Source of the DNA: a virus
Virus record (IMG/VR): IMGVR_UViG_3300030333_002570
Location: 66,093-130,092 of that record
Direction: 5' to 3' (one strand)
Length of the DNA: 64,000 bases
The notes under the pieces were generated by a model that was not told where the DNA came from, ran no database searches, and saw only the letters and a program-made list of their open reading frames with translations. Shown here one piece after another: positions 1-24,000 of the stretch (position 1 is its first letter; each line of letters starts with the position of its first letter). Made by a program: the position numbers and the translations under genes.

Positions 1-1
1 T

Positions 2-3000: not shown

Positions 3001-6000
3001 AGGTGTTGTTTCACGTATTCTAATTAATTCTGGAGGATCTGGATACACCTCACAACCTCAAATTACTATTGTAGGTGGAGGTGGTTCTGGTGCTTCTGCT
3101 ACTGCATCTGTTAGAGGTCCAATTAAGACTATTAATGTTACTTCTGGTGGTTCATCATATACATCTAATCCTACTGTTACTTTAAGTTCTGGTTCTGGTG
3201 CTGTTGCTCAAGCAATTGTACAGAATGGTCGTATTATATCGATTGCTATTATTTCAGCTGGATCTGGATATACTACTGCTCCTGAAATTACTATTCAAGG
3301 TGATGGTTTTGGTGCTGTTGCTAGAGCAACTATTGATGTTGATGGAGAAAATGCAGGTAGGGTTACTAATATTGAAATTATTAATAGAGGTATTGGATAT
3401 CTTCAAGGAACCACTATTATTAATTTAAATTCAGTTGGATCTAGTGCATTATTCACTCCAAATGTATTTAAGTGGACTTATAACTTACAATCAACTGCAA
3501 CTTTAGATAGTGCAAAAGGTGGAGTATTTGAAGGATATAATAACCAGTATGGTGGTGAATATGCTCACCTTTCAAACCCACAAACATTAAGATATATTTT
3601 AGGTGACAACCTTTTTGAATCAACTGGTGGTACAATATTAGAGAAAGAAGATTCTATTGTACACTCACCTATTATTGGTTGGGCGTTTGATGGTAACCCA
3701 ATCTATGGTCCTTATGGATACTCTGATCCAACCGATCAAGGTTCTGTAATTACTAGATTGAGCACTTCATATAGAGTTAAAACTGCCCTTGTTTATGACG
3801 CTGCTACTAACCCATACCCAGTTAGGGCTGATGGTCCTTTACTCACAGATACGGATACTAATGGTACTCTATTATATCCAGCTGGTGCTTTCGTTGAAGA
3901 TTATGAATATGTCTTTGGTTTAGGTGCATTAGATCAATATAATGGTCGTTTCTGTAAAACACCTGATTATCCAACTGGTAGATATTGCTATTTTGTCACT
4001 ATTGACAATACTACTGCTGGTAATCCTGAATTCCCTTATGTTTTAGGACCAAGTTTCAACTCTGTTGTAGATAAGTGGAATTTGAGTACATCTGCTGTTC
4101 AACAGAATATTCCTACTGGTGTTGTTCGTTATAGAGACCCATATGAAAATGTTGATATTGATGTAGATAGAGCACCTAACGTTTCTACTAATGCTTTAAC
4201 AACTGAAGATGGTGAAATACTATTATTTGAAGTAGAAGATGAAGATAGAAGTGGTGTTATAGATCAGGTAGAAATAGATGATCCAGATCAAATCTTTGAA
4301 GAATCACCTTTACAGTTATTTGATTACTTCCCTAAAGTAACATTTGATTCTAAAGTTGATATTGAAGTTGAAACTATTACTAAATTTGAAGATGCTTCTG
4401 TAACTGGATTTACTATTGAAAACCCAGGTATTAACTATCAGGTTAATGACCGTTTAAACTTTGATAATGAAGGAACTGACGGTACTGGTGTTTCTGCTCG
4501 TGTTTCTAGAATTAAGGGTGAAGCAGTCGAAAGTTATACTTTTGAAAACATTAGTGGACAAAATTTCGGTGTTTTAAAGACTACAGAACCACATAATTTA
4601 GTAGTTGGAGATAGTGTTTTTGTAACTTATAATCCAATAATGAACAACACAAATAAAACTTTTGTTGTTCGTCAATTTAAAGGTATTGAAGAAATTGTTG
4701 TTAATCAAACTGGTTCTGGTTATAATTCTGATATTCCTCCAACAATTACTATTGATAGTGCTACTGGAAGTGGTGGGGAATTACAAGCAGTTGTAACTTC
4801 TGTTGGATCTATTGAAAATGTTAATATCTTAAATTCTGGTTCTGGATATACAACAAACCCTCGTGTTATACTTTCACATCCACAGGTCTTTAAGAAAGCA
4901 GATTACTATGTTTCTAAGATTGATAATAATAATTACGTTAAAGTAAATGATGTTGTTGTTAATACAAACAAAGAAGTCTTTATTTGTGGTAAAACAAAAG
5001 ATGCAAATGGTAATAATGTTGGATTTGTTTCTAAATTATCTGCAACTGGTGTTAAAGAGTGGGAGAAAACTCTAGAACTTACTAGTGGACAACAGTACTG
5101 TGAATTTGAAAAACTTTATGTTGATGGAAATGATGTTTGGGTTGTTGGTAATAATAGACCAGAAAGCAATCTTTTAGATGCATATAACCCAGATGTTATT
5201 CTGGCAAAGTATACTCAAGCAGCAAATGGTCTTGCTGCTACATTGGCATTCCAGAAAGGATATGCTGGTATTTCAGGTTCTACTCGTGCTGATTCTGTAA
5301 CTGCTATTACTAAACTTTCTGATACCAGATTTGTTATTGGTGGTTATACAAATACAAACTCAACTGCTCCTTTTGATGGATATATTGCTCTAATTGATAC
5401 AACTGGTAACTTTGCAATTAAGAGAAAGGTTGCAGGTTCTAATACTTCAGAAAAAGTTACTGGTTTAGCAATTAATGCTGGTAATATTTACTTCTCATTA
5501 GAAAGTGCTGCAAGTCCTAATGCTACTGCTATTGATATTGGATTAGGTAAAGCAACAGTTGGTACTAGTACAATTACTATTGATTATGTTAAAACATATT
5601 CAAATACAGCATATTCATTCTTAGATTCTAGTCTTTGTATTGATGAATTTAATGAAGTTTATTTAACTGCAACTTGTAGACTTAAGGCAAATAATACAAC
5701 TAAGAATAGTTTCTGGGTCGGTAAGACAGATATTTCTGGTAATTTAATTTGGAATTATCGTTATCAAATACCTAATGAAAGTGGAACTGAATATGATGTT
5801 CAAACAGTAAACAAAACTGTAATTGATGTTTTTGGTGATCTTAATGTTGGTGTTACCTTAACAAGTGGAATTAATAGTCTGAAGAGTGCAAGATCCTTTA
5901 AGATTGGTTATAGTGGTAATTTAAAAGAACATTCAGCAAATGTCTTTAATATTAATAATATTGAAGGTCTTACTATTCATTCATTAGATGCTGATAATTC

Positions 6001-9000
6001 TGGTGATGTCCATTTATTCGGTCAATCTGCTTGGAATAGAAATGAATTTATATTACCATTTACAGGTGGAGCAACAACAGATACAACTGGTCACTATACT
6101 CCAACTATAGTAACTACAGGAGGTTCATTAAGTTATGAAAATACTGTCCAAGATGGATATGCCAAAATACTCGGATCTCAAACTGCAAGTCCAACTGTCT
6201 GGGAAAACGCTTACATTAAGTTCGCAGCTGCGGACCTTGGGACTAAACTTGCTGAAGATTGGACTATAGAATTCTTTCTCTATAGAGATAGCACAAATAC
6301 TAACGTATTCAGTCAGAATGAAGAGACTTTATTCTCTATTGGTGATGCAACAGTTACTACTGGTGGTCTTTGGTGTTATATTAATCAAAGTGATGGAAAA
6401 TTAGGATTTAGAGCAACTAATAGTACTACTGCATTAAATGCAGGATCTGCTTCATTATCTACACAATCTTCTTTATTCCCACTTAATACTTGGATAACAG
6501 TTGGTGTTAAGAAAGAAGGGGATGTCTTTAGCACATATGTTAATGGTATTGCTACAGGTAGCTGGACTATTGCTAGTACTTCATTAGGAAATAAGGATTT
6601 AATTATTGGTAATATCTCTGGTAGAAACGGAACTCTTAATAACTGGCGTTCAAATGAACAGGGACAATATCATATTGATAATTTACGTTTAAGAAATAGA
6701 GCAGTTACACCATCTGTTCCTTCTGATATTACTGTTGTTCCTGCTACTGGTCAATTCCCAATTGGATATAATTGGCAAGATGATGCTTGGTTTACTACTA
6801 ACCTAAACAAATTTGATTATATTGATTACACTGGTATTGGTATTAAAGTTGACAAAAATGCTGATGCATCAAGAATTGGCACTTATACAGAAAGAACTAA
6901 CACTAAATTAGGATTTGTTAGAACAGATGTAATAGGAACTACTATTACTCCTACTACAATGACTGTTGTAACAACAGGATTTGCATTAGCAGATGCTGGA
7001 TTCCAAGGTTTAGACTTTGACGATGCTACTACAACAATGTCTCAAGATACTGAGACTATGACTTATACTCAGGATGTATGGAGTTCTAGAACTGCTACTG
7101 TTCCATCTCCAGGTTCTCAGAAATTATCTGTATCTGCTGTAGTTAAAGACAAGTATTACTTTAAAGTAACGAATACTGTTAAGATTGATAATGTTCAAGA
7201 ACTTACTTTAAATCAGGCATTTAATTTTACCACAGGAACAAAATTAGTACTTAATAATGATGCAGGTACTTTTGTTAACAGTGGATATATTATTAGACAG
7301 GATGTTCCTAATAAGAAAATATATCTTGCTATTAATAATAATGCTTGGTCAAATGATTTAAATACAGGTAATTTAATTACAGAACAATTCAGTGAGCAGA
7401 GCACTTTTGGAATTGTCGGACCTATTCCTGCTGATATTAATGAAATATCAGGATATACGTTTGCTCAGGTTAATAATACAACTCCTGGTACATTTGATAT
7501 TGACCTAGACGACTATAACCTAGATGGCACTTATAATGCTGGTGGTAGTCAAGACCTCGATAGTTATGCTAAATTTAAACCTTATTCTGATGATGATTAT
7601 TCAATAAGAATTGATGAAGTTACTACTGGATCACCATATATTGTTGGATCTGTTATTAATATCAATAGTGGTAATATTTCATATAATGCTGCTTATTCTA
7701 CTGCTCAAATAACTGGATTAACTGCTGTTACAAAGATAACTTTAATTGCTAATCTAACTAAGATTATGCAAGTTAGTGCAGTGTCTAATAGTGACGAAGT
7801 TTATGTAATTACTGGAACAAGTCATTACCTAGATGCAGGTGATATGATCTATGTTGATGGTAACCCAACGGAAAATAGTCTTGATGAATATGATGGTGCA
7901 TTTGCTGTTAATAGTGTTGTAAGTCCATTAGAATTTACATATAAACTAAAACAGGTTGCTACAACTTCTCCTGCTACAACTGCAGGTAATGTAAGTATAT
8001 TTGTTAAATCTCCTGTATTGAAGATGTATTATGGTCACCAGTACATCTTTGACATGAGTCATAGTTCATTACTTGGTGGAAACTTATCATTCTCTAAAGA
8101 TAACTTATTTAAACTAGAGTATTCATTTAACTCAATTGAAAGGACTGGAACTCCTGGTGTTAGTGGAGAAGGTGTTCCTACACCTATAGTTAAGTTAAAA
8201 GTTGATGAAAATATTTTAACTAATATATCATACTACTTTGATCCTTCAAGAATTGGAGATGATTCTCCAATTGATCCTAGCAGTTACTTAGATGTTACTG
8301 ATTCTCCATATAAAGGTACTTTCTCTATTAGTTCTGTTGCTGGTGCAACAATTACTCGTGGTGCTGATGTATTTAAATTCCCTCTATTAAATGAACCAGA
8401 GGGTAATGCTGAAGTATCTCAAACAACTTATAGCACAAGTTCTGTTAAAGCAGTTGGATCTATTTCTGATGTTCGTATTGTTAACTCTGGTGGATTCTAT
8501 ACTAGACTACCAATTGTAAGCAGTATTACTTCAACAAGACAAATTGAAAGAGTTGCTATTGAGGATCCAGGAACTGAATATGCTGTAGGTGTGTATACTG
8601 GTGTTCCTATTGCTGGAAATGGTGAAGGTGGATTTGTAGAAATTACTGTTGCTGATGGATTAGATAGTGAAGGTGTAACTATTCCTGGTCAAATTAACTC
8701 TGTTGTAGTTACATCACCTGGTAAAAATTATACTACAGCAACTATTGATATTGAATCAATACCTGGTATTCTCGGTGCAGGATTAACTGGATCTGGTGCT
8801 ATATTAAATGTTGTTATTCCTAATGCAGGTACTCAAGCATCTATATTTACCAAAGCAGATAAAGTTGGTAAGATTAAGAAACTTAAGAATAATAACTTTG
8901 GTTATGATTATCCTCATGACTATACTTTACGTCCTGAGATTTCATTCCCAATTAACGCACAGTTAACATCTACAAGTATACTTTCTAGTATTACCGTTAC

Positions 9001-12000
9001 TAATCCAGGTTCAGGATATTCACAAGCACCTGCTGTTGTAATTACAGGTGGTGGTGGATCTGGAGCAACTGCTGAAGCAACAATTAAGAATGGTAGATTA
9101 GATCAAATTATAGTTAAGGATCCAGGTGCTGGTTATTCATCAACACCAACTGTTTCACTTAAATCTTCATTTAACTATGTTGTTAACCTTGACTTAGGTC
9201 TACTACAATTTGCTTTCCCACACGGTATTACAAATGGTGCTGCTATAACTTTAAATGTAGTTGATACTGGAGATGGTGCTGATTTCCCACTTGCTGCTGG
9301 TGCTGTTGGTCGTTTAAATGGATCTACAACTTATTATGCTATTTCTGGTGCAGCAAATTCATTAGAAAATGATCAATTAAAAATTGCACTTACTGCTGCT
9401 AACGCTGAATTGGGTGATGCTCTTTCCTTTGTTAACGCTGGTGAAGGTCGTCAACAGGTATTAACTGAATCATTTGGTGGTAGTGCTACTGCTAATGTTA
9501 TTACTTCTACCTTCTTAGAAGGAGAACTTGTTTATCAAGGTGAATCATTAGATACTGCAACTGCTACTGGATATGTTTCTACTAACCAAGGTTGGCAGAT
9601 CGGACCTAGAATTCTTAAGATTGTTGATTATACGGGAACATTCTCAGAGACCCAAAAAGTTACGGGTGTAATTTCTAAGTCTTCAGGTACTATTAGTGAT
9701 TTGAATATTGCTCGTGGTGTTCTTGAGATTGGTTCTATTACCAAAACTACTGGTCAGTTTATCGATGATGTTGGTAAACCATCCGAAATTATTCAGAAGA
9801 TTCAAGACTCTTACTATTATCAAGACTTCTCCTATGCTATTAAGTCTGCTGTTTCTATTAGTGAGTGGAAGGAAATTCTTATTAAGAACGTTCATCCTGC
9901 ATCATTTAAGGTATTTGGTGAGTTAAATCTATCTGATTATGGATTTATTCCAAATAAAGAGACTGATTTCCAACTTACTAAGTCTGTTGAACTTGCAAGA
10001 GAAGCAATAGTTCCAAATATTCAAAGTTTTGCTCTTGTAGAACCAATTTATTCAGAATTTAATAACACTGAAGTTCTATTCCGTCAAAAGAGATTAACTT
10101 CTTCTGAGAACATTCTAACTTCTGTTGTACAAAGAATTGATGATATTTCTGATCAATTTGATGGTGAAAAGATTGCATTCCCTCTAACAGTTGATGGTAA
10201 CACTGTTGTTGCTAACGCTAATCAGTTAATGATTGTTTTGAATGGTATTGTTCAGAACCCTGGAACTGCATTTGAGATTCAAGGTGATTCTATCGTCTTT
10301 AGTGAACCACCACAACCACCTGCAAGTGTTAAGTATGTTAATATTGAAATATCACAAATTTCAATTGTAAGTAATACATTTACTAACCAAAGTGGTATTT
10401 TCCCAAATCCAGGTAATATTTTAACTGGAACAAACTCTGGTGCTAAATTAACTGTTACTTCTGTTGTTGGTGATACTATATTTGGTTTTATTACAGAAGG
10501 AACATTTATTGCTGCAGAAAACGTAACTGTTAGTGCAACTGGATTTAGTGCTAACCTTGATGTTCAAAGTAGTGTAAGTAATATTGGATTATTCCAGTAC
10601 GGTGAACAAGTTAAGAACTTAACTAATGATACTGCTAAGGTTGAGCAAATCAACCTTCAGAGAGGTTTGGAGAATGCATTAGCAAAATTACGTTATACAG
10701 TTGGTCCTTCTACTCTTCAAATAGAAGTAGTTCCTCCAAATAGCACTACAGACGGTCCTGTTGCTACTGATACATTTACGGTTGATCAAAATTATCAACT
10801 TGGATCTGAAGTTGTTAAAGTTACTAATATTGTTGACGGTAATGATTCTACAACATTAACAGTTTCCAGAGCACAAAATGGAACTATTGCATCACAACAT
10901 CAAGAAGATTTCCCAATTTACGGAACTCTATTAACGGTGACAACTTCTCTTACTTTAAGTAAGACAGCTGGAACTTATAAGTCTACTCCTGGTCTATTTG
11001 ATATTCAGTTAAATGATATCATTATTGGTGCTAAGTCTGGTGTTGTTGCTCGTGTTACACAAACAAGTGCATATCAAGATCCTACAACTCAAGAGTTTAT
11101 AAGTCAGGTTAATATTTCTGAAGGTTCTTCCTTCTTTGGATTGTTGATGAACAGAATTACTTCTCAGACATATCCAAACGTTGTTCTTGATGATATTTCT
11201 AAATCTCAAGTTAGTGTTGTTCAGTACACTGATAATTCTACTGCTTTCAACTCACAGTTCCCTGCTAATGAACAGATTAATAACATCGTAGTTCCTTACG
11301 ATAATCTAGTTGGTGGTCCTATTCAAGAGAATGAAACTATCAGAAATTACAAACTTAAGTATGGTGGAAATACTGGTGAATTTATTGCTGGAGAAAGTGC
11401 TAGAGCAAGAAAACTTTCTTATGTTAATCCTAAAGGTGATGGATTCTTTGCTACTGGTCAGGTAATTAGAACTCAAGATACAAAAGCAGAAGTTCTTGGA
11501 TTTAATCAGGCAGATCAAGTGATTTACCTTGGTAAAGTTGGTAGAACTAAAGCGAATGGTCAAGATTATCATATCCCATCATTCTCTAATAGTGCTCAAC
11601 TCGATACTACAGTTAAGTACTATGGAACTGCTTCACTACAATTAGTAGCAGCAACTAATGATTATGTTACTATTCCTTCTTCAAGTGAATTTGCTTTTGG
11701 AACAGGTGCATTTACTATAGATCTAATGTTACGTCCTGCAGCAAGTTCTTTAAGTGGAACTGCTACTATACTTGACATGAGAGCATCTGCTGCAAATGAA
11801 GTTGCTGGTAGACTTTACTTAGAAGCTGGTCAAGTTCGTTGGAATGTTAGTAATGCTGATGTAGTTACTTCTGGTGCAACAACTCTTAGTGCAGATACTT
11901 GGGTTTTAATATCCATTATGAAGTCTTCTACTACAACTAAGATTTTATTAAATGGAGTTGAAGCAGGTACTGCAACAGATAATACAACTTATATTGCAAA

Positions 12001-15000
12001 ACCAATTAGATTAGGTTCTGATTATGCTGGTACTAATAGTTTTACTGGATTCATTGATGAGTTAAGAGTATCTAATACTAACCGTCATCAAACAATTCCA
12101 TTTACTCCTCAGAATGGTATTTGGCAAGGTGATGCTCAAGCTAAGTTATTATTACACTTTGATGGTGCTGATGCTCAAACATGGGTTGATGATTGGTCTG
12201 GTGCAGAAGGATTTACTGCTGGTGAAGACTTTAATAATGATGCTATAATATCTTCAACTCGTTCTTCTAATGCTACTCCTGGTGGATTTACTGGTAACAC
12301 ACAAAGATATTATGATGCTGCTGATTTAATTCTTCTTAATAAGGAATTCCTTGCTCAAGAAGTTGTTTATATTCTAAAAGAAAGACATCCTCATCATACT
12401 GTTAAGGGTAGTGAAGTTGATTGTGAAGATGATGTTCGTGATGTATTAGATGCTGTTATTGATGACCTTCGTAATGGAACAAATAATAAGATTTGGGATG
12501 CATCTTCTTACTATGTTGATAGAACATCATCACCTATTGTATTGAAGTTTGTTTCTAATGAAGTTGATGAAGTAGTTTACACTTATGATAAACTTGAGGA
12601 AATGCTCAAGTATATTGTTAATAATACTCTTTGGGATGTTCAAGGTGATCATGGATTAGTACAAAAGACAGATTCTACTATTACAGAATCTAGTGGATTA
12701 ACTACACAAACTTTCCAACCTACTGGAGCATCATATGATGCAGCAAGTGGTTATATGGTTTTAACTGCTTCTGGACACGGTATGAGATCAGAGAGAGCAA
12801 TTACTGCAACAGATGCTGCTTATACTGCAACAACAGGTATTTTACAATTAACAGTTGCTACCTCTACATTTAGTGTTTCTACTGCAACTTATGACCATAC
12901 AACTGGTGTTATGGTAATAACAATTGGTTCTCATAGTTTGACAACCAATGATAATATTAGAATTGCTACTGGTGGAATCACATTTAGTTGTGACAATGGT
13001 GGAGTTAGTACTGGTGCATATCCTCGTTCATCTGGTGCTAATACAGAAAGTGGTGCTGACTATGCATACGATAGATGGCTTCCAATTCTTGCTGTAGGTG
13101 CAACAACTATTACTGTTAATGTTAACGGTGGTAAGGGTGCTATTAGTCATGCCTTTGCACACACATATTCAACTTCTTCTGCAGGATGTATTACTGCTGG
13201 TCATGGTCTTAATGATGGAGATAGAATCAAGTTTGATCCTAATTCTCTTGTAATGAATTGCACCTCTGATGGTAATACAGTTAATCAGAGTTATCCAAGA
13301 CCTGATGATCCTGCTGCTCAAGGTTGGTTAGAAGTTACAGCAAATACTGGTACTACATTTGATGTAAATGTTGGTAAATCACCTACTGTGAATTATACAG
13401 CAACTGCTGGAACTTATAATGCTGATACTGGTTTCTTAACCATGAATATTGGTCAACATAATCTAAGAACTGGTAGAAAATATACTGCAACTAATGCTGA
13501 ATATACTGCAGCTTCAGGTGTAATGAAGATTACTATTGGTGATAGTATTGATGTTTATGATGCAAGTTATACTGCTAAAAATGGTCTATTAAAATTAAAT
13601 ATTGGTCATCATAACTTTAAAAAAGGTAGTTTAGTTAAGATTGCTCCTAACTCACTATTCTTTACTTGTAGTATGGATGATTATCAGTCAGTTCATGCAT
13701 ATCCAAGATCAAGTGATCCTGTTTATAATGATGATATTGAAATTATTGATATAACTGATGAAACTATTACTGTTGATGTAGGAACTTCTCCAGAAGTTTC
13801 ATATACACCTACTGGTGCAACTTATGACATCAATACAGGTGATATGGTACTTACTATTGGTTCTCATAGTTTAGCAGTTGGAACTAGCATAAGACTTTTA
13901 GATGAATCTATATCATTTAGTTGTAGTTTTGGTAGTGGTGGTACTAGTGCATATCCTCGTCCTTTAGTTGATACTGCAAATATAAGCACAGCATCTTACA
14001 ATCCTCAGACTGGAATCTTCTCAGTAACAACTACTGCTGCACATAACTTAACTGGTCCTACTGCTAAAAATGTTACTGATGCTACTTACAATCCATCTAC
14101 AGGTATTTTACAGTTAGAATCTGGAGGTCATAACTTTGCTGTTGGTGATAAGATAAGAATTAAGGATGATTCTTTAGTATTTACTTGCACTAAAGATGGA
14201 AATGCAACAAACCATACATATCCAAGATCAACTGATCCTGTAAGTGGACAATGGTTAACTATTGTTGCTAGAGCAACTAATACTTTTGATGTTCAGGTTG
14301 GTGCTTCTAAGATTGGTTTAAATGAATTTGCTCATACATGGGCTGGTGGTACTGCAACTAATGCAGTTGAGAAAGCAAATGATGTAATTAAATTTGCTGA
14401 TAATTCAATGACATTTACTTGTGCATTGGATGGTGGTGCAACACAACATCAATATCCAAGGACAACTGATCCTGTAAGTGATAAGTGGTTGATTGTTGAA
14501 AATGTTGGATCAACTACTTTTGATGTTCAAGTTTTAGATAACGCTCCTTCTACTAATACATCTGCACATACATTTGTTAGTGCAACAACTGGTGCTGTTA
14601 AGATTAAGAGAGATCCTGCTCAAGGAACTGCTCTTCCAATCACTGCTGTAGGTGCTACAACTATTACGGTTAATGTTACACCTATTACTTCTTATAGTTC
14701 ATCATCTCATACATTCCAATCTGCATCTCAAGGTGCTGTTAAGGTTGGTGGTGATTACACTCATAAATTTGTAGATGCTGCTTCTGGTGCTGTTATTCCT
14801 CATCACGGATTCTATATTGGTGATAGAATAATGTTTGAGGAAGGATCATTAGTCTTTACTTGTGGTATGGATAGTGATGCTACTAGACATGCATATCCAA
14901 GAGAAAGTGATCCATTCTACAATAAATGGTTACCAATTAGTAGTGTAACTACAAATACCTTTAATGTTGATGTTGGATCAACTACTAATACAACATTTAC

Positions 15001-18000
15001 TCCAACTGGAGGATCCTACGATGGAACCACAGGTAAGTTAAGTATTACTATTGGTGCTAATACACTTGAAGTTGGTCAGCATGTTAAGATTGCTCCTAAC
15101 GGAATTTCATTCACATGTGCAATGGATGGTGGTCAATCTGTTAAGTCCTATCCAAGAACAACTGACCCAACATATAATCAAACTCTTCCAATTCTTGAAA
15201 GAAGTGATACTGCTATTACTGTTGATGTTGGTAAATCACCTTATGTTTACTTTGATGTTTCTGCTGCTACCTACAACCCAACATCGGGTGTCATGGTACT
15301 TACAATCGGAGATCATGGATTAGCTGCTAATACAAGTATCAGACTTAAAGATAATTCATTAACCTTTAGTTGTGATCAAGGTGGAACTGTTGGAACTGGA
15401 ACTTATCCTAGATCTGGTGGTGCAGACTACGTTTATCAGAAAGCAATTAATATTGATTCTGTAACTGATACTACAATCACAATTAATGTTAACGGTGGTC
15501 AAGGTGCTATTACTAATACCAATGCTCATACATTCGTAAGTGCTATACCTGGTGCAGTTATTGCTGGTGGTGCTTGGGCTCATACTTATTCTACTGCTGC
15601 AGCAAATGCAGTTTCAGTTGGTGGTAACTATACTCATACGTTTAAGTCTGCTTCTCCTAATGGTATAACAAGAGCTGGTGAAACACTTAGAATTATTAAA
15701 GATGGTATATCATTTAAGTGTTCACAAGATGGATATCAAACAATTCATTCATATCCTAGAACAGATGATCCTGGATATAATACTTCTCTACCAATCTATA
15801 ATGATGGTACTGCTTATACTGCATCTAATGCAGCATATAATGCATCAACTGGAGAAATGGTCATTACTATTAATGGACATGGATTTACAACCAGTGATCA
15901 AATTAGAATTGAAAATAATTCATTAACATTCACTTGTGTTAAAGATAGTAATACATCTACCCATAGTTATCCTAGAGATAATGATCCATTCGTTCGTAGA
16001 TGGTTAAGAATTACTGCTGTTACTGAAAATACATTTACTGTAAATGTAGGTAAAGCATCTTCCTCAACTCAACAGTTCTCACATACATTTGCTTCTGCTA
16101 CTAAAAATGGTATTGTTAAACGTGATAATACTGTTACTGTTAACGTTGGTGCTATTCCAACTAAGAGTTTCACACCGACTGCATCAACATATAATCCTTC
16201 AACTGGTGCTTTAGCATTAACTATTGGATCACATAGTCTACCAGCTCCAACCACACATACACCAACTGATGTTGCGTACAATCCAACAACAGGTATTATG
16301 ACTTTGACTATTAATGGTCATAACTTCTCTAATGGTGAAAAGATCAAGATTGCTGATGGTGGATTGAAGTTAAGTTGTGCATTTGGTGGTGCTTCTGGTG
16401 CTGCTGCACAGAAAGATTATCCACGTTCAACTGACCCAATTAGCGGTAAGTGGATTCCTATTAAGAATGTAACTACAAATACTTTTGATGTCCAAGTTCT
16501 AGATGTAATACCTTCTACAAACACTGATGCTCATTCATTTGTATCTGCTGTTACTGGATGTATTAGTAAAGCAAATGCAACAGTTAAAATTGCTGAAAAT
16601 TCATTAGTTTATAAGTGTGCTGAAGATAGTAATGCTACAGAACATGCTTATCCAAGAAGCAATGTTGCTACTCATACAGCTGGACCAGGGACAACTTATA
16701 ATCCTGTTACAGGTGTTCTGAAGCTTAGTGTTCCTACAGAAAGTCATACACCTTCTACAGCAACATATAATCCTTCAACGGGTGAGATGGTTCTAACTCT
16801 TGATTCAACTTCTGGAGCATTTAACGTTTCTAATGCAACTTATAACACCTCTACAGGTGATATGGTACTTACCATTGGATCTCATAGTTTAACTACAGCA
16901 AATAGAATTAAAATTAAAGAAGGATCTTTGAAGTTTGCATGTAACTTTGGTAATGATAATTATCAAACTCCAAAAGCATATCCAAGAGCTTCAGGTGCTA
17001 ATACTACTAATGGTGCTGACTATGCATTTAATACATTCCTACCAATTACCGCAGCTGATGCTACAACTATTACTGTCAATGTTAATGGTGGTCAAGGTTC
17101 TATCAGTAACAATAATCAGCATAATTTCTTAAGTGCTGATGCTGGTGCAGTTATTGTTGGTCATGGATTATCTGTTGGTGATAGAATTAAGATTGCTGAT
17201 GAATCATTAACCTTCAGTTGTGATCAAGGTGGAACTGTTGGAAATGGTTCATATCCTAGATCATCTAATGACTATGTTTATCGTAAGTGGATTAGAATTA
17301 GAGCAGTAACTGGAAATACTATTACTGTTAATGTTAACGGTGGACAAGGTGCTATTACTAATACCAATGCTCATACATTCGTAAGTGCTACTGCTAATTG
17401 TATAACCTCTGGTCATGGAATGACTAATGGTACTCCAATTAAGATAACTGATAGTTCACTATCATTCAGTTGTACTGAAGGTGAAGGTGGTACATATGCA
17501 TATCCAAGAGCAACTGACCCAGTTTCTAAGAGATGGTTATTCATCAATAATGTAACTGATTCTTCATTCGATGTTCAAGTTTTAGATACAATTCCTTCAA
17601 CTAATGTAACTTCACATACATGGATTAGTGCTGTTGCTGATGGTATTGTTGAAGGTGATCCTATTGTTGGACAAGCAGTTCCTGTTGAATCTGTAACTTC
17701 TACATCTATTACAATTAATCCTCTTGATGGTGATGTTCCAACTAACACATCTGCACATACATTTGAGAAGTTAAACACATATCAATTCCAACCATCTGCT
17801 ATTACCTACACTCCAACAACAGGTGTAATGTCAATAACATCTACATCTCATAAGATTGAAGAAGGTGATAAGATATTCATTAAAGATAATTCATTATCAT
17901 TTAAGTGTAATATGGGTGATGATGCTGGTCTTCATACTTATCCTCGTGAGACAGATCCAGTATCTAATAAGTGGATTACTGCTACTAACGTAACAGCTAA

Positions 18001-21000
18001 TACATTTGATGTTAATGTTGGTTCAACACCTAATGTCTTCTATACTCCTTCGGATGCAACATATAATCCAACTACGGGTATAATGAGACTTACTATTGGT
18101 AACCATGATCTTAGACCTGGTACTAGTGTTAAGTTAGGACAAGAATCATTAACATTTAAGTGTGCTCACGATTCTTATGCAACTAATCATTCATATCCAA
18201 GAAATACAATATTAAGTCATACTCCAACTGATGCTGATTATCATCCTGATACAGGTATCATGACATTGACTGTCAATAATCATAAGATGGGTGATGGTGA
18301 TTGGGTTAAGATTGCTGATGGTGCTGTAACATTTAAATGCACATATGGTGCTGGTATTCATACTTGGACTGGTGGAACTGCAACTGGTGCTGTTCAAGTT
18401 CAAGAAGCAGGTTTAGGAAACTTTGATGTTACTGCTGCTGACTATAATCCATTGACAGGTGATATGGAATTAACAGTCGGATCTCATTCTATTACAACTG
18501 GTAATACCGTTAAAATTGTTGCTAACTCATTAACCTTCAGTTGTGATCTTGATAATAATGCAACGAACCACACTTATCCTCGTGCAACTGACCCTGCATA
18601 TGATACTGCTCTTGCAATATCTGCTGTAACTGGTACAACTATAACAGTTAATGTTGGTGTAAGTTCACCTGGAACTGCATATCCTCGTGCTTCTGATCCA
18701 GTTAGCGGTAAGTGGATTAAGGTCTTTAACGTAACTACAAATACATTTGACGTTCAACTTTTAGATATTGTTCCATCAACTAATACAAGTATTCATACAT
18801 TTGTTTCTGCTGTTACTAATGGAATTAGTCAGAAGAAAGATAGTGCTTATGATTCTCCAGTTGAAATTGTTGATACTACTGCTACAACTATAGATCTTAA
18901 AGTTGTTAGAAAATTACCTTCTACAAATACAACAAATCACATCTTTGTGTCTGCTGCATCTAACGCAGTTATCTCAGGTGGTGCATATACACATACCTTT
19001 GTTACAGCAGACGCAGATGCTATTACTAGATCTATAGTACAAACTGGTGGTAATTATAATCATGTATTTGCATCAGCATTAACAGATGGTGTAGTTACTG
19101 GTGGTAACTATGTTCATACTTTTGTATCTGCTGCAACTAATGGTATTAAGTGTGCTGGTGATGCAGTTTATCTTGCTCCTGGATCTCTTACATTTACATG
19201 TTCACAGGATGGAAATGATAGACCTACTGCATATCCTAGAACTACAGATCCTTCTTATAATCAATTATTAGAGATTAAAGATGTAACTTCTGATACATTT
19301 ACTATTGATGTAGGTGCAGCTGCAGAGAAAGATCAATATACTCATTCATGGGTAAGTTCTTCTCAAGGAGCTGTTAAGAAATCTGATTACAATCTCAAAG
19401 ATTGTACTGATGTTCATACTACAGTCGGTAACTTAATTGATATACTTACAGATACATTAACAAATGCTAATGTATCACCTACACCTGTTGATCATTTAGC
19501 AAGTGTTACTAAGGTTCTACCACCATATAAGTTCTACGGTGCAACCGTTGACGCATATAATGATACTCCATTCCCTGTATCATATCATAGTGCTGCCAAT
19601 GATCTTATAGTTACTAATCAAATTGATGAAGATACTCAGTATAGATTCCGTGATGCTGCATACTTAATTCGTGCAAATAGTGGTGTTATCGTTGATAAAG
19701 CAGCATATGACATGCTACAACGTTATCCAGATCTTGCTATTAGTATGCCAAGAAATGCTAATGGAACATCTACAGATGGTACTGTTCGTTGTAAGCAAGA
19801 TTTACTTGAGTTTGTTAGTGCAATTGCTACTGACCTTGAAAATGGTGGTAATTTAAATACCATGAAAGCTGCTAAGTTCTATATTAGTCTTTCTGGTGGA
19901 TTACAACATATTCGTTTACAGGTATTCCAATCTGTTTATGCACATGATCGTTTAGGTGTATATCTTAAGCAAGCAGTTACTGGTGATTTAACATATGATA
20001 ATACCGATAATATCGTTGTTCGTGACTGGGGTATTACTGATAATAGTTCTAGTGGTAATTGTGCTAATGTTCAAACTGCTATTGACACATTAATTACATC
20101 AATTAATGATTTGATCGCACCTACAGATAGTGACCATGCACTTGCTGCAGATAGATTATACTTCAATAAAGATTTCCTTGCTGAAGAAATTACTGGTCTT
20201 ACAACTGCATATTTCACTTATACATTAAACGGTGTTAATTACTCAGCACTTACATATCCTGGATCTACTGGAGAGGCTACATGTCAGAGAGATATTAAGT
20301 TAATTTTAGATGGTATTATTTCTGATCTACAAACTGGTGGTAATGAAAGTACTGTTATTGCAATGGAGAAATATCTAAGTGCTACACTTCAGATTGAACA
20401 AGTGGATGATGAATTAGCAGCAACTATCTACGCTATTGATAGACTTAGACATCTTGGTCAATTTGGTATTAAGGATAAATTATTCTCACAAAATGAAGGA
20501 TCAGGTGCTGCTGATGAATATGAAGCAGTTCATACTAATAGAGCAGAGTATAGAGATGGTTTAAGTGATGCTGGTGGTATGAATGCGGTTGTATATCGTT
20601 ATCGTGATCTATGTGATATTGCAATTAATATACTTGCTCCTGGTGGTAAGGCAGCAAGAAGTGCTGTTAAGCAACTTAAGTACAACCAAAATTACTATAA
20701 GGAAGAGATAACCACACTTGTTAATACACAATTTGGAACTGGAACTTGGACTTATAATACATTCATTGATGAAATGGTTGGTAATACTGTTCATGATATT
20801 CTTACAACTGACTTTAATAAAACAAGGACTGCTTATACAATAGAATTAACTAGTACATTCAATGATTATGTTGTTGGTGAAACTGTTGTTTCTAGTAATG
20901 GTGGTAAAGCAACTGTATTAGAATGGGATGATGATGAAGAAATTTTATATACTTCATCATGGACTGGTAATAAGTTTGAACCAACTCAAACATTAGTTGG

Positions 21001-24000
21001 TGGAAGTTCTGGTGCATATGGAACTATTGCTGCTAATGGTGTTAGTGCTCCTTATACTTGGTATACAGAACCTGCTAATATTAAATCACTTAACACTGCC
21101 AGATTAATTACTTCTAATATTTCTGGTCAAGTTGCTGGAACTAATATAGCATCTAATCCAGAAAACTTTACAACTGGTTGGACAAACACTGGTATAACTA
21201 CATCTGCAGATCAACTTGAATCACCAGATAGTACAACAACTTCAGATAAGTTAATTGCTGCTGCTGTTGCTGGTGAACATTATATTTCACAAAACTTTGC
21301 TATTAGTGCTTATGAAACATTTGATAGTGATACAGTTAAGTTTGATAGTGCTACTGAAACATTTGACACTGGTGCTCTTGGAACTCAAACAACTCAGCAA
21401 TACACATTCTCAGTATTCTTGAAGAAAGGTGAATTTAATAGAGTTCGTGTTCAAATGGGTCTTGATACTGGAACTGTTGGAGAGCAATTAGCATTCTTCG
21501 ATCTTAATTTGAATGATGGTGTTATTGGTTCTATATTCACTCCTGGTAATGGTATTGTTATTGATGCATATGGTGTTGTTCCTTATGGTAATGGTTGGTA
21601 TAGAGCATATATTACTGGAACATTCTCCTTCGGATTCTCTCAGATACGTCCAATAATCTTTGTTAGAGATGCTTCTGGTGCATCAACCTATACTGGAGAT
21701 GCAAGTTCTGGTATTTACATCTGGGGTATGAAACTCTTTAAGGGTGTTCTCGATCCTTATCAATCTGTTGCTGGTCAAGTATTCTATGCTGATACAGAGT
21801 ATAACATTAAGACTTATGCATTAGATCTGTTACAAGATTATATGATTAAGGCACTTACTGGATCTTTAATATCTCCTTCAACTAATGCAGGATTCTATGC
21901 ATACTATGACAATACAATTAATACTGATTATAAGTATCGTTCTATTGAAAGATTAGTAAGATATAATTTAAATATTATCCGTGAGCAATTAGCAGTAGAT
22001 AGTTACTACACTGGTATTATCTCATTAAATGGTGTTTCTGTTCCTACTAAGACTTATGGTACTAGAAGCATTCCTGCAGGTATACAAGGTGGTTTACAAA
22101 ATTCAATTTATGTTTATGGTCTTCAAAGTAATGCTAATGCTGAAATTGAAACAATAACTGAAAATTCAGGTAAAGTTGTTCAAGTTTATCAGAGATTTAG
22201 AATTGATGGTGATATAACAGACGGACCATTTACTATGAATGAGACTGTTTCTAAACAGGGTGCTCCTTCTGTTACTGGTGTTGTTTATGGTTACTGGTCT
22301 GATGAAAACTACAAGTACCTAGATGTTAAGATTACTGCTGGTCCTTGGGCGGTTACAGATACCATTGTTGGTGCTCTAAACTCAACAACTGCTCAAATTA
22401 GTTTAATAGAAGATAGACTTCATATTATTGATGTTAAGGGTGAATTTGAGAATGATATTCCATTTAAGGGATATACAAGTAGTGCTACAGCATCACCTAC
22501 TGGATATATTAAGGCAGAGGCATCTGTTATTGACAATACTGGTGGAACCTTAACAGTTGATACTGAAAGTCTAACAGGATCATTTGAATCAACTGCTGTT
22601 GTTTATCCATCATCTTCTAGGAAATATATCGATGTTTCTAAGTATGCTGGTCTTGATATTACTGTTGGTGATAGAATTGCTTCTGGTGGATATAAGAGAT
22701 TTGGTGTTTCTGTTCTAAGTGGACTTAATCAATTTACTCAAGGTAATAGACTTTATAAGGTTGTCTCTGGTATTCAAGATACTAACACATACGGTATTAT
22801 CACCGAAGTTGATATTGATAATGGTTACATATATGTTGCGGAATATCAAGGATCATTTACTCAGGGTGATATTGTAGGTGACTATGGCACAAATGCTTCC
22901 TTCCCAGTTGGTTACGCATCAATTTTAACGATTGTTACTACTCAGGGTGCTGCAGCTGCATTAGTACAAGATGTTCGTGATATCGCATTGAATAAGAGAT
23001 TATATCTAACAGATATTGCAGGAACATTTGATGATAAAGATTATATCATCGGTCCTGATAATTATAGATCTGTAGTTGTTGGTATTACTGATCTTAAGGC
23101 ACGTGTTAAACGTTCCTTCAAGGGATTTGATGGAACAACAACTACGTTCCCATTAACAATTAATAACGGAACCACATACTTACCTGACTCTGCAGGTCAT
23201 ATGTTAATATTCCTTAATGGTATATTACAACCTCCAGGTGCAACTAACGCATATACAGCGTTCTCTAACCAGATTCAGTTTACTGAAGCACCAGATTTAG
23301 GTGCATCCTTCACAGGATTCTATGTTGGTAAGTTGAGACAGTTAGATGATATATCCTTTGAGTTTGACTCCTTACGTCAGTCATTCAACCTTAAGCGTAA
23401 TGAAGTATTCTACTCACTAACTCTAACTGAAGGTGTTCAGTCCAGTACAATTCTCCCAGAAAATAACATTATTGTTTCACTAAATGGTGTTGTTCAGGAA
23501 CCAGGCGTAGGTTTCGAGATCGTTGGTTCTAGAATTATCTTCTCTGAAATTCCTCGTGTGGGATCAACATTCGTTGCCTTCTCCTACGTTGGTTCTGAGG
23601 CAGACGTTGATGCTGCTGAAGTTGTACCACCAGTTGAACCAGGTGACTTTATTGACATCCAAGGTGAGACTTCAGATAGAGAAGTTGCTGTTATTGAATC
23701 TTCTAACTCCTTAATTACATTTGACTATCTTGGATCAGTCTTTGGTAAGGACGCACAAGGACAAGCAAATATTACTTCAGGAACTATTGAAACCGTTCAG
23801 GTAACTTCAGGTGGATCTGGTTATACAACTAGACCAACTGTTAGACTTGATTCTATATCTGGTTTTGATGGTAATGTTAAAGCACTAGTTGGTGTTGCTG
23901 GTGTTGAAATTAATAATCCTGGAAGCGGTTATCAAAACCCTGCTGTTGCAGTAGAAACAGTTGTAGATGATAACTGGACTGCTCCTGACTTAAGTCTATA

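What the first reader, a model, noticed from the sequence alone, without database searches (positions are those of the whole stretch)
12713..19381. Recursive (matryoshka) protein architecture: 21 copies of one domain nested up to 8 deep, with balanced brackets
Consensus parts: A = F/Y-T-P-x-x-A-x-Y-x-x-x-T-G-x-M/L-x-L-T-I; B = H-x-L-x-x-G-D-x-I-x-I...F-x-C...YPR; C = DP...W/L-x-I...T-F/I-x-V-N-V; D = H-x-F-V-S-A-x-x-G-A-V. Copies are mostly not tandem. They are interrupted at recurring loops (after A, after H-x-L, after YPR, after C) by whole further copies and resume later in last-in-first-out order. Manual parse: D1(D2(D3, D4(D5(D6(D7(D8(D9))), D10(D11)), D12, D13(D14, D15(D16(D17)), D18(D19(D20(D21))))))). 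D1 breaks after GHGMRS (~12790) and resumes at AGDAVYL (19154), about 2120 aa later. Runs of bare closing strands (GGAYTHTFVTA, GGNYNHVFASA, GGNYVHTFVSA at ~18977-19150) close earlier domains. Counts balance at 21 openers, 21 Cys, 21 YPR and 21 closers. Inference: one polypeptide folds into a branched, tree-like appendage rather than beads on a string. I am not aware of a description of nesting this deep but cannot search the literature. The core also resembles the simpler HGL..GD.V.I small beta-barrel seen earlier in the same ORF (~2290-2410).
Basis: partly seen in the sequence, partly recalled or inferred. Interest (0 to 1): 0.95.

Follow-up and report, generated by a model that had tools for sequence, protein, structure and literature searches.

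The report
Self-nested beta-barrel domains in phage protein
A giant baseplate-region protein of a T4-like marine cyanophage holds 21 copies of one small beta-barrel domain inserted into each other's loops up to eight levels deep, which is deeper than the six-level record I found in the literature.

Summary
Residues 4237-6462 of the giant ORF (window 12710-19387) are tiled, apart from one residue, by 40 fragments. These fragments reassemble into 21 full-length copies of a ~105-aa domain. The five domain elements occur 21 times each and nowhere else in the 8010 aa. Fragment order obeys a last-in-first-out stack, depth 8; none of 200,000 shuffles did so under either of two null models. A first-in-first-out pairing fails at 12 of 19 continuations.

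AlphaFold2 models of a 2-level and a 4-level sub-tree are confident (pLDDT 90.7 and 88.2; pTM 0.72 and 0.82). Structure searches match single six-stranded barrels to model ranges that skip the inserted domains.

Six contigs from other assemblies at 85-99% identity keep the architecture. Relatives carry from 2 to 21 or more copies. One relative has an empty loop exactly where this nest sits.

The principle is already known from the cyanobacterial RNA polymerase SI3 insertion (nine domains, six levels). This is therefore a new, deeper variant in an unannotated phage domain family. I found no description of it.

What the nest does is inferred, not shown.

The parts
2..24034 (+). Giant virion or baseplate structural protein ORF, more than 8010 aa, 5' end outside the window. 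It is the host protein of the nest.
   Evidence: ORF; phrog_701 and phrog_18802 'virion structural protein', matching from profile position 207 on. YHYH, Laminin_G_3 and a weak Baseplate_wedge hit in Pfam; relatives annotated gp7 baseplate wedge initiator or structural protein.
12710..19387 (+). The whole nest: 21 domains in 40 fragments, aa 4237-6462. D1 is the outermost domain, with pieces 12710-12796 + 19154-19387.
12800..19153 (+). D2 (level 2). Pieces 12800-12865 (A) + 13199-13393 (h-K-Y-C) + 19094-19153 (bare D strand). Hosts D3 and D4.
12866..13198 (+). D3, intact copy
13394..19093 (+). D4 (level 3). Four pieces: 13394-13480 + 15674-15811 + 16124-16168 + 19031-19093. Hosts D5, D12 (inside its C hairpin), D13 and D18.
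13481..15673 (+). D5 (level 4). Pieces 13481-13549 + 14795-14992 + 15623-15673. Hosts D6 and D10.
13550..14794 (+). Sub-tree D6(D7(D8(D9))), levels 5-8. D6 13550-13801 + 14750-14794. D7 13802-13975 + 14609-14749. D8 13976-14062 + 14375-14608. D9 14063-14374 (intact).
   Evidence: AF2 pLDDT 88.2, pTM 0.82; model ranges 169..279, 141..355, 83..401.
14993..15622 (+). D10(D11). D10 14993-15247 + bare D strand 15572-15622. D11 15248-15571 (intact).
   Evidence: 24-row alignment; AF2 pLDDT 90.7; outer-domain matches span 1..209, inner 85..192.
15812..16123 (+). D12, intact copy inserted inside the C hairpin of D4
16169..17785 (+). D13 with pieces 16169-16252 + 16574-16690 + 17654-17785. It hosts D14 (16253-16573, intact) and D15(D16(D17)). 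D15 16691-16744 + 17408-17653. D16 16745-16816 + 17156-17407. D17 16817-17155 (intact).
17786..19030 (+). Sub-tree D18(D19(D20(D21))). D18 17786-18040 + 18980-19030. D19 18041-18217 + 18836-18979. D20 18218-18352 + 18674-18835. D21 18353-18673 is circularly permuted (D strand 18353-18421 first, then A-K-Y-C) and sits between the Cys and YPR of D20.
   Evidence: 36% identical over its full length to the D6 sub-tree.
12590..12709 (+). Host loop upstream of the nest (..DHGL..TDSTIT..), the end of a helical repeat unit of the giant protein.
   Evidence: The homologous loop in L017 runs straight into the next helix with no insert.
19388..19480 (+). Host helix downstream of the nest (C.DV...V..LIDIL.DTL).

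Best explanation
The region encodes 21 paralogous copies of a ~105-residue, roughly eight-stranded beta-barrel domain. Its core resembles EF-Tu domain 2, FNR FAD-binding and UBA1 FCCH type six-stranded barrels. The copies are recursively inserted into each other's surface loops.

The first (A hairpin) and last (D strand) elements of the barrel presumably lie side by side, although I have no coordinates to confirm this. If so, a whole copy, or a whole sub-tree, can sit in a loop of another copy through two linkers of 2-5 residues. Six loops are used as insertion sites.

The result is a tree: D1(D2(D3,D4(D5(D6(D7(D8(D9))),D10(D11)),D12,D13(D14,D15(D16(D17))),D18(D19(D20(D21)))))). The polypeptide runs outward through the opening fragments and returns through the closing fragments. 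The whole nest is itself one insertion in a loop between helical repeats of a giant baseplate-associated virion protein.

Shown here: the sequence grammar, its statistics, its conservation, and confident predicted folds for 2- and 4-level sub-trees.

Inferred:
- The nest forms a rigid, doubly tethered, branched body on the baseplate. High pTM suggests fixed inter-domain geometry.
- Folding proceeds inside-out. D1's first 29 residues would wait for 2120 further residues.
- Copy number, from 2 to 21 or more among relatives, tunes the size or surface of a host-contacting appendage.
- Growth is by copy-and-paste of domain-length or sub-tree-length segments, which is why one copy is circularly permuted.
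For: Grammar and counts.

LIFO order: valid at depth 8; 0 of 200,000 valid in each of two shuffle models; FIFO fails 12 of 19.

AF2 of D10(D11): pLDDT 90.7, pTM 0.72, with the bare closing strand in blocks of pLDDT 85-96. VIA-align matches single barrels to the inner domain at 85..192 and to an outer domain spanning 1..209 with only 62-77 aligned residues.

AF2 of D6(D7(D8(D9))): pLDDT 88.2, pTM 0.82. Barrel matches fall at 169..279 (D9), at 141..355 (D8; 9lc0_I Z 6.7, 82 aligned) and at 83..401 (D7; 8fth_A Z 5.5, 79 aligned). The best fold match is the UBA1 FCCH barrel, Z 8.2, rmsd 2.8, 80 aligned.

Conservation: contigs from other assemblies at 85-99% identity have the same token string.

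Recurring 2-level units: AKYC(*)D, A(*)KYCD and AKY(*)CD occur as 29, 20 and 10 unique instances, mostly 202-230 aa (a few up to 279), in other viral contigs.

Moving insertion point: in alignment A4 the same host domain carries its guest either after the C hairpin or inside it.

Presence or absence at the host site: L017 has no insert where the window has the nest. L017 has a 2-domain nest in the next repeat, where the window has none.

Virion and baseplate context.
Against: - No coordinates, contact maps or PAE were available. Pairing of distant halves is read from the first and last aligned residue plus aligned length.
- D6, the outermost domain of the modelled sub-tree, gave no clean row of its own.
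- Fold-search Z scores (5.5-8.2) are in the range the tool calls middling.
- MSA rows were chosen by the same token grammar, so the models are not fully independent of it.
- Nine of the 19 continuation events are type-ambiguous, so LIFO there rests on parsimony and geometry.
- A naive parse of 127 other token strings was noisy: mismatch cost 372 against 662 in shuffles, and only 26 strings were at or below the minimum of their shuffles.
- There is no experimental evidence that the protein is in the virion of this phage, and none on what the nest does.
Confidence: 0.85

Rival explanations
1. The fragments do reassemble into barrels, but not strictly last-in-first-out within one chain. Some openers and closers would be exchanged between neighbouring domains (domain swapping, as reported for parts of RNA polymerase SI3) or between the six copies of the protein in the baseplate. 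The object would then be an interdigitated lattice rather than a clean tree.
For: Nine of 19 continuation events are type-ambiguous. [quoted passage not shown] Runs of three to six bare D strands could in principle pair in other registers.
Against: Where the types discriminate (18 events), the stack order is always obeyed and the queue order fails 12 of 19. The AF2 monomer models are confident without any partner chain. The structure-search ranges match the LIFO domains. Linkers of 2-5 residues favour the nearest pairing.
Confidence: 0.08
2. The elements A, K, Y, C and D are independent beta-hairpin or strand modules of a fibrous beta-structure (solenoid or triple beta-helix) with variable module order. 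The apparent full domains would be only the commonest module order.
For: Phage fibres are often built from short beta repeats. Only 7 of the 21 copies are contiguous. Bare D strands occur in runs.
Against: The five elements balance exactly at 21:21:21:21:21 and the order is a valid stack, which a free module order would not give. Reconstituted units are full length and align over all columns. The AF2 models show discrete barrels that match globular six-stranded barrels, not solenoids.
Confidence: 0.04
3. The pattern is an assembly or gene-calling artefact of a repetitive region, with collapsed or chimeric repeats.
For: Repeat-rich regions are prone to misassembly.
Against: The copies are only ~38% identical to each other on average, too diverged to confuse an assembler. 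The same 2226-aa architecture, with 2-3 gap positions in 2,226 aligned columns, is found in IMG/VR and metagenome contigs from other assemblies at 85-99% identity. The reading frame is open for more than 8000 codons.
Confidence: 0.01

Closest known systems
SI3 insertion of cyanobacterial RNA polymerase beta' (recursively inserted SBHM / HABAS domains)
   Same: One small beta-domain family is both host and guest. Copies are inserted into loops of other copies recursively. The whole assembly is itself an insertion in a loop of a larger protein. PMC11515920 describes nine additional HABAS domains 'inserted into other HABAS domains'. PMC13114784 calls it a six-level recursive architecture, the extreme case in 2.7 million ECOD domains.
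   Different: Here there are 21 copies and 8 levels, with six different insertion loops and one circularly permuted copy. The fold matches EF-Tu domain 2, FNR and UBA1 FCCH type barrels, and no RNA polymerase chain appeared among the listed matches (this is inconclusive, not an exclusion). The context is a phage virion protein, not an enzyme. Copy number varies from 2 to 21 or more between relatives.
Single-level beta-barrel insertion domains (UBA1/UBA6 FCCH domain, endosialidase barrel domain, P22 coat I-domain)
   Same: These are small six-stranded barrels that sit in a loop of a host domain. They are the best structural matches: 6dc6_A Z 8.2, 4hiz_A Z 7.8, 3gvk_A Z 7.2, 2m5s Z 5.5.
   Different: They are one level deep and sit in an unrelated host domain. 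No sequence similarity was found: the search of solved structures gave nothing better than E 0.15.
Tandem beta-domain arrays in phage and bacterial surface proteins (Ig-like, BIG, FN3 'beads on a string')
   Same: Many copies of one ~100-aa beta domain in a giant surface or virion protein, with variable copy number.
   Different: Those copies are contiguous and joined by single linkers. Here only 7 of 21 copies are contiguous, and no purely tandem string was seen among 127 related token strings.
T4 gp7 baseplate wedge protein
   Same: Relatives carrying this domain are annotated 'gp7: baseplate wedge initiator' in P-SSM4, P-HM2 and S-SSM7. The next gene has a T4 gp9/10 N-terminal domain and further baseplate wedge genes follow.
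   Different: T4 gp7 has about 1000 aa (from my own knowledge). This ORF has more than 8000 aa. Homology of the host protein to gp7 rests on annotation and a borderline Pfam Baseplate_wedge hit (28.2 bits against a cut-off of 27).

Membership tests
Recursive self-insertion architecture (the kind exemplified by RNAP beta' SI3) | The same domain family acts as both host and inserted module | tested here: met
   All 21 reconstituted units align to one 110-position profile. 14 of them are interrupted by other copies.
Recursive self-insertion architecture (the kind exemplified by RNAP beta' SI3) | Fragments resume in last-in-first-out order over more than two levels | tested here: met
   The stack parse is valid at depth 8. 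No shuffle was valid (0 of 200,000, two null models) and FIFO fails 12 of 19.
Recursive self-insertion architecture (the kind exemplified by RNAP beta' SI3) | Split halves form one compact domain in three dimensions | tested here: met
   Predicted only. AF2 pLDDT 90.7 and 88.2. Single-barrel matches span 1..209, 141..355 and 83..401 with 62-82 aligned residues. No experimental structure exists.
SBHM / HABAS domain family (CATH 2.40.50.100) | Sandwich-barrel hybrid fold, or sequence similarity to RNAP SBHM domains | tested here: inconclusive
   No RNAP or lipoyl/biotinyl chain appears among the 50 rows shown in each VIA search. There is no Pfam hit. Absence from a list is not an exclusion.
EF-Tu domain 2 / FNR FAD-binding / riboflavin synthase-like six-stranded barrels | Closed six-stranded barrel superposable on family members over most of the domain | tested here: inconclusive
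   Z 5-8.2, rmsd 2.3-3.5, 65-85 aligned of ~105 residues against many members. The tool states that Z under 8 may reflect only a common arrangement. Foldseek found nothing at E <= 0.001.
Any curated protein family for the repeated domain (Pfam-A, PDB sequences) | Significant profile or sequence match | tested here: not met
   Pfam best is E 5e-4, below the gathering score. PDB best is E 0.15. Only PHROGs of cyanophage structural proteins match.
Tandem repeat (beads-on-a-string) domain array | Copies contiguous and head to tail | tested here: not met
   Only 7 of 21 copies are contiguous, and the fragments interleave.
T4 gp7-like baseplate wedge protein (the host protein) | Sequence homology to gp7 and position in the baseplate gene block | tested here: inconclusive
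   The Pfam Baseplate_wedge hit is borderline. Neighbouring genes are baseplate wedge, gp9/10-like, neck and sheath stabiliser. Relatives are annotated gp7. The upstream gene is outside the window.

The most novel reading that the evidence does not exclude
This would be the deepest (8 levels) and largest (21 domains, 2226 aa) self-nested domain architecture known. It would be one instance of a growth mode used throughout a narrow, unannotated family of cyanomyovirus baseplate and fibre proteins (about 700 clusters at 50% identity). In that family a small barrel with adjacent termini acts as a self-inserting module. It builds rigid, branched bodies whose size changes quickly between phages, and may be latched by the near-invariant His...Cys...His residues. 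It would also be a natural extreme case for co-translational folding, because an outer domain must wait for more than 2000 residues before it can close.
Probability: 0.45. Interest if true: 0.88.

Novelty: new variant of a known kind. Interest (0 to 1): 0.78.

Why it matters
- Depth. Recursive insertion of one domain family into itself has so far been described essentially for one system, cyanobacterial RNA polymerase SI3 (nine domains, six levels). This second, unrelated system is about twice as large and two levels deeper. It shows the principle is not a one-off.
- Folding. The opening hairpin of D1 is made about 2120 residues before the rest of its domain. Eight opening fragments are open at once at the deepest point (D9). 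That makes a concrete test case for inside-out co-translational folding and for what keeps opening fragments from aggregating.
- Design. Each guest is tethered twice by short linkers. The high pTM of the 4-level model suggests rigid geometry, which is of interest for building branched protein scaffolds.
- Annotation. Linear profile searches see only fragments here. Pfam reports nothing, so such architectures are invisible to standard pipelines.
- Phage biology. Copy number ranges from 2 to 21 or more between related phages, and the cassette sits in different loops of the host protein. It is therefore a fast-evolving part of the adsorption apparatus of abundant marine cyanophages.

Tried and rejected
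- Complex prediction on the two halves of D7 (alignments A7 and A8) gave no verdict: score 0.31 against a mark of 0.32, and the controls were not run. I do not use it either way.
- Foldseek against the PDB gave no match at E <= 0.001 for the 2-level model.
- A profile of six intact copies against PDB sequences gave nothing better than E 0.15.
- Pfam on the 2223-aa region gave only sub-threshold hits.
- A mixed alignment of 2-level, 3-level and single-domain relatives against the 4-level target (A3) was inspected and abandoned. MAFFT placed bare closing strands on the wrong domain. A6, with full-length orthologues plus D9-like single domains, was used instead.
- The one metagenome scan returned only four near-identical orthologues.
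- An automatic stack parse of 127 token strings from other contigs was noisy, because one missed token derails it and most loci are truncated. Violations were 524 against 693 in shuffles, and mismatch cost was 372 against 662. I therefore claim family-wide nesting only from the recurring 2-level units and the alignments, not from that parse.
- Parent-child similarity shows no signal of recent self-duplication: 36.8% against 38.0% mean pairwise identity.
- No RNA polymerase SBHM chain appeared in the rows shown by the structure searches.
- Seven full-text literature searches found no description of this architecture in cyanophages. The library lacks most subscription journals.


Full report
**Context.** The window comes from a T4-like cyanomyovirus. 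Its neck, sheath-stabiliser and terminase block is 75-79% identical to Prochlorococcus phages P-SSM3, P-SSM4 and P-RSM1. One ORF, 2..24034 on the + strand, is open at its 5' end and encodes more than 8010 aa. It matches PHROGs 701 and 18802 ('virion structural protein') from profile position 207 on. In Pfam it carries a YHYH domain, a ConA-like lectin domain and a borderline Baseplate_wedge hit. Downstream lie a T4 gp9/10-N-domain protein, baseplate wedge subunits, neck proteins and the sheath stabiliser. Relatives that share the repeated domain are annotated gp7 baseplate wedge initiator, structural protein or tail fibre in 326 cyanophage records and in BFVD.

**The observation.** Plain regular expressions find 21 YPR and 21 [FLYVM]xC motifs in the region, and no YPR anywhere else in the protein. 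I aligned six copies that looked uninterrupted, built a 110-position HMM and searched the whole protein. The hits are fragments whose profile coordinates complement each other, for example 2-57 followed later by 59-106, or 2-26 followed later by 27-104. They abut with gaps of only 0-5 residues. The short stretches the HMM left unassigned are bare D strands of the type GGxYxHTFxSA.

Assigning every fragment gives 21 units that tile aa 4237-6462 with a single uncovered residue and no overlap. After the inserts are excised, all 21 align over the full domain length with the intact copies. Sub-HMMs for the five elements give exactly 21 hits each in 8010 aa, with scores far above those in shuffled sequence. 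The elements are the A hairpin, K (ending in the Cys), Y (YPR), the C hairpin and the D strand.

**Is the order a stack?** I wrote each of the 40 fragments as an interval of element positions and ran a stack automaton. The observed order is valid, empties the stack, and reaches depth 8. In 18 events the type of the continuing fragment excludes at least one other open domain. A queue rule is violated at 12 of 19 continuations. No valid order appeared in 200,000 shuffles of all fragments, and none in 200,000 shuffles of the continuing fragments among their own slots. The resulting tree is D1(D2(D3,D4(D5(D6(D7(D8(D9))),D10(D11)),D12,D13(D14,D15(D16(D17))),D18(D19(D20(D21)))))).

D13 closes (..HTFEKL, aa 5918) before D18 begins, so D18 is a child of D4. 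The insertion sites are:
- after the A hairpin;
- after H-x-L;
- between the Cys and YPR (D20/D21);
- after YPR;
- inside the C hairpin (D4/D12);
- before the D strand.

D21 is circularly permuted.

**Not an artefact, and not unique to this phage.** The copies average only 38% pairwise identity. Two IMG/VR contigs and four metagenome contigs at 85-99% identity have the same token string, with 2-3 gap positions in 2,226 aligned columns. A contig at 52-54% identity keeps the 4-level sub-tree.

Across more than 150 further viral contigs the same fragment classes recur, and no string is purely tandem. The three simplest nests occur as 29, 20 and 10 distinct instances, mostly 202-230 aa (a few up to 279): AKYC(full)D, A(full)KYCD and AKY(full)CD. 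That is two domain lengths with almost no linker. In the 24-row alignment of AKYC(full)D units, five rows carry the guest inside the host's C hairpin instead of after it, so the host's second C strand appears on the other side of the guest. A collinear sub-tree at 44% identity (L113) likewise has its level-2 domain split inside the C hairpin, where the window's D7 is split after YPR.

A profile search of 1.84 billion representative proteins finds only 693 clusters with this domain. One of them, P0002, holds six tandem copies of a 4-level nest. My automatic parse of distant relatives was noisy, so I do not claim a clean family-wide proof.

**The nest as a cassette.** L017 encodes a collinear giant protein that is 38-48% identical outside the nest. 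At the window's nest site its sequence runs uninterrupted from ..TIDSTITIDPASP into the helix RCAAVESAIDTL. In the window, 2226 aa lie between the corresponding ..TDSTITESSGLTTQ and ..CTDVHTTVGNLIDIL. Conversely, L017 has a 2-domain nest (aa 3348-3550) between ..GITTDTAAGGQA and ..CADVKAAVDTM, where the window has ..GITDNSSSGN directly followed by CANVQTAIDTL. The whole nest therefore behaves as one insertion in the loop before a Cys-initiated helix of a helical repeat, and different repeats are occupied in different phages. This supports note e1-5935244.

**Predicted structures.** D10(D11) was folded as 209 aa with a 24-row alignment of architecture-equivalent units. It gave mean pLDDT 90.7 and pTM 0.72. 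The blocks covering the bare closing strand scored 85 and 96.

D6(D7(D8(D9))) was folded as 418 aa with 36 rows, of which ten were full-length orthologues at 44-87% identity. It gave pLDDT 88.2 and pTM 0.82. A pTM that high for four domains suggests a defined mutual arrangement.

In the 2-level model, single six-stranded barrels align either to 85..192 (the guest) or to a range 1..209 with only 62-77 aligned residues (the host, skipping the guest). In the 4-level model most rows fall on 169..279 (D9). Four rows fall on 141..355 with 63-82 aligned, which is D8 (144-172 + 277-354). One row falls on 83..401 with 79 aligned, which is D7 (86-143 + 355-401). D6 gave no clean row.

The best fold matches are the UBA1/UBA6 FCCH barrel (Z 8.2), the endosialidase barrel domain, phage tail and tube barrels, EF-Tu domain 2, FNR FAD-binding domains, riboflavin synthase and ribosomal protein uL3. 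I therefore describe the fold as an EF-Tu-domain-2/FNR-like six-stranded barrel with extra strands. The caveat is that these Z values are in the range the tool calls middling, and Foldseek alone found nothing. From my own knowledge, the FCCH, endosialidase barrel and P22 I-domains are themselves insertion domains, consistent with adjacent termini.

**How it probably works and grows.** These points are inferred, not shown.
- Each guest is held by two short linkers, so the tree should be stiffer than a chain of singly linked domains.
- The polypeptide goes out through the opening fragments and back through the closing ones, so folding must complete from the innermost domain outward.
- Parent and child are no more alike than random pairs, so the tree is old rather than a recent burst of self-copying.
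- The D6 and D18 sub-trees are 36-37% identical over their whole length, so entire sub-trees have been duplicated.
- The permuted D21 looks like a domain-length segment copied out of register.
- Function is not established. The lectin-like and YHYH domains elsewhere in the protein, the baseplate neighbourhood and the variable copy number point to an adsorption-related appendage.
- His in the H-x-L motif is invariant in A1 and nearly invariant in A4. The Cys, YPR, the Asp of DP and the His of the D strand are invariant in both. A metal site joining early and late elements is possible (note e1-5935243) but untested.

**Comparison with what is known.** A 2026 survey of insertions in 2.7 million ECOD domains presents six-level nesting in the SI3 region of Prochlorococcus RNA polymerase as its extreme case (PMC13114784). 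[quoted passage not shown] The principle is therefore known.

What is new here is the depth (8 levels), the number of domains (21), a different and unannotated domain family, the multiplicity of insertion sites, a permuted copy, and the setting in a virion protein with copy number varying between phages. Seven literature searches found no description of it. BFVD does hold predicted structures of related cyanophage proteins, so the raw models are public.

**Verdict.** The feature is real, statistically unambiguous, conserved and supported by predictions. It is a new and more extreme variant of a known but very rare kind of architecture.

Noticed in passing
window 12590-12709 and 19388-19480; window ~20030-20110; L017 aa 3020-3070 and 3330-3560 of its giant ORF: There is reciprocal presence and absence of the nest. 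L017 has an uninterrupted loop where the window has the 21-domain nest. L017 has a 2-domain nest in the next helical repeat, where the window has none. The insertion site is the loop just before a Cys-initiated helix (C..V...(I/V)D.L).
   Followed up: partly
L113:604-1824 versus window 13547-14800: These 4-level sub-trees are collinear and 44% identical, but the insertion point of level 2 differs. It is inside the C hairpin in L113-L116 and after YPR in the window. Either the events were independent or the junction has moved.
   Followed up: partly
P0002 (4764 aa): This representative protein has six tandem copies of a roughly 4-level nest (token pattern AKC-AC-AY-AKYCD-D-D-D repeated). Nested units can therefore themselves be arrayed in tandem.
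   Followed up: partly
window 13550-14794 and 17786-19030: The sub-trees D6(D7(D8(D9))) and D18(D19(D20(D21))) are 36-37% identical over their full length. A whole sub-tree was duplicated. The innermost pair differs by a rearrangement that leaves D21 circularly permuted.
   Followed up: partly
all 21 domains, e.g. window 14063-14374: His (H-x-L) is invariant in A1 and nearly invariant in A4. Cys (F-x-C), Tyr-Pro-Arg, Asp (DP) and His (D strand) are invariant in both. In domains split after YPR the opener ends YPR+3-5 residues and the closer starts (R/K)DP. A metal or other latch between early and late elements is conceivable but untested.
   Followed up: no
window 2219-2492: The motif DHGLLVGDQVTIYG resembles the H-x-L..GD.V.I part of the nested domain. 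The domain HMM does not hit this region, so the likeness is limited to a short motif.
   Followed up: partly
window 3475-4015 and 11654-12085: The giant ORF also carries a YHYH domain (aa 1158-1337) and a ConA-like Laminin_G_3 domain (aa 3885-4028). Both fit a carbohydrate- or surface-binding appendage.
   Followed up: no
window 25291-30192, 31767-38981, 39534-47357: Three further very large structural ORFs (1633, 2404 and 2607 aa) follow in the same block. The 1633-aa one shares PHROG families with the giant ORF.
   Followed up: no
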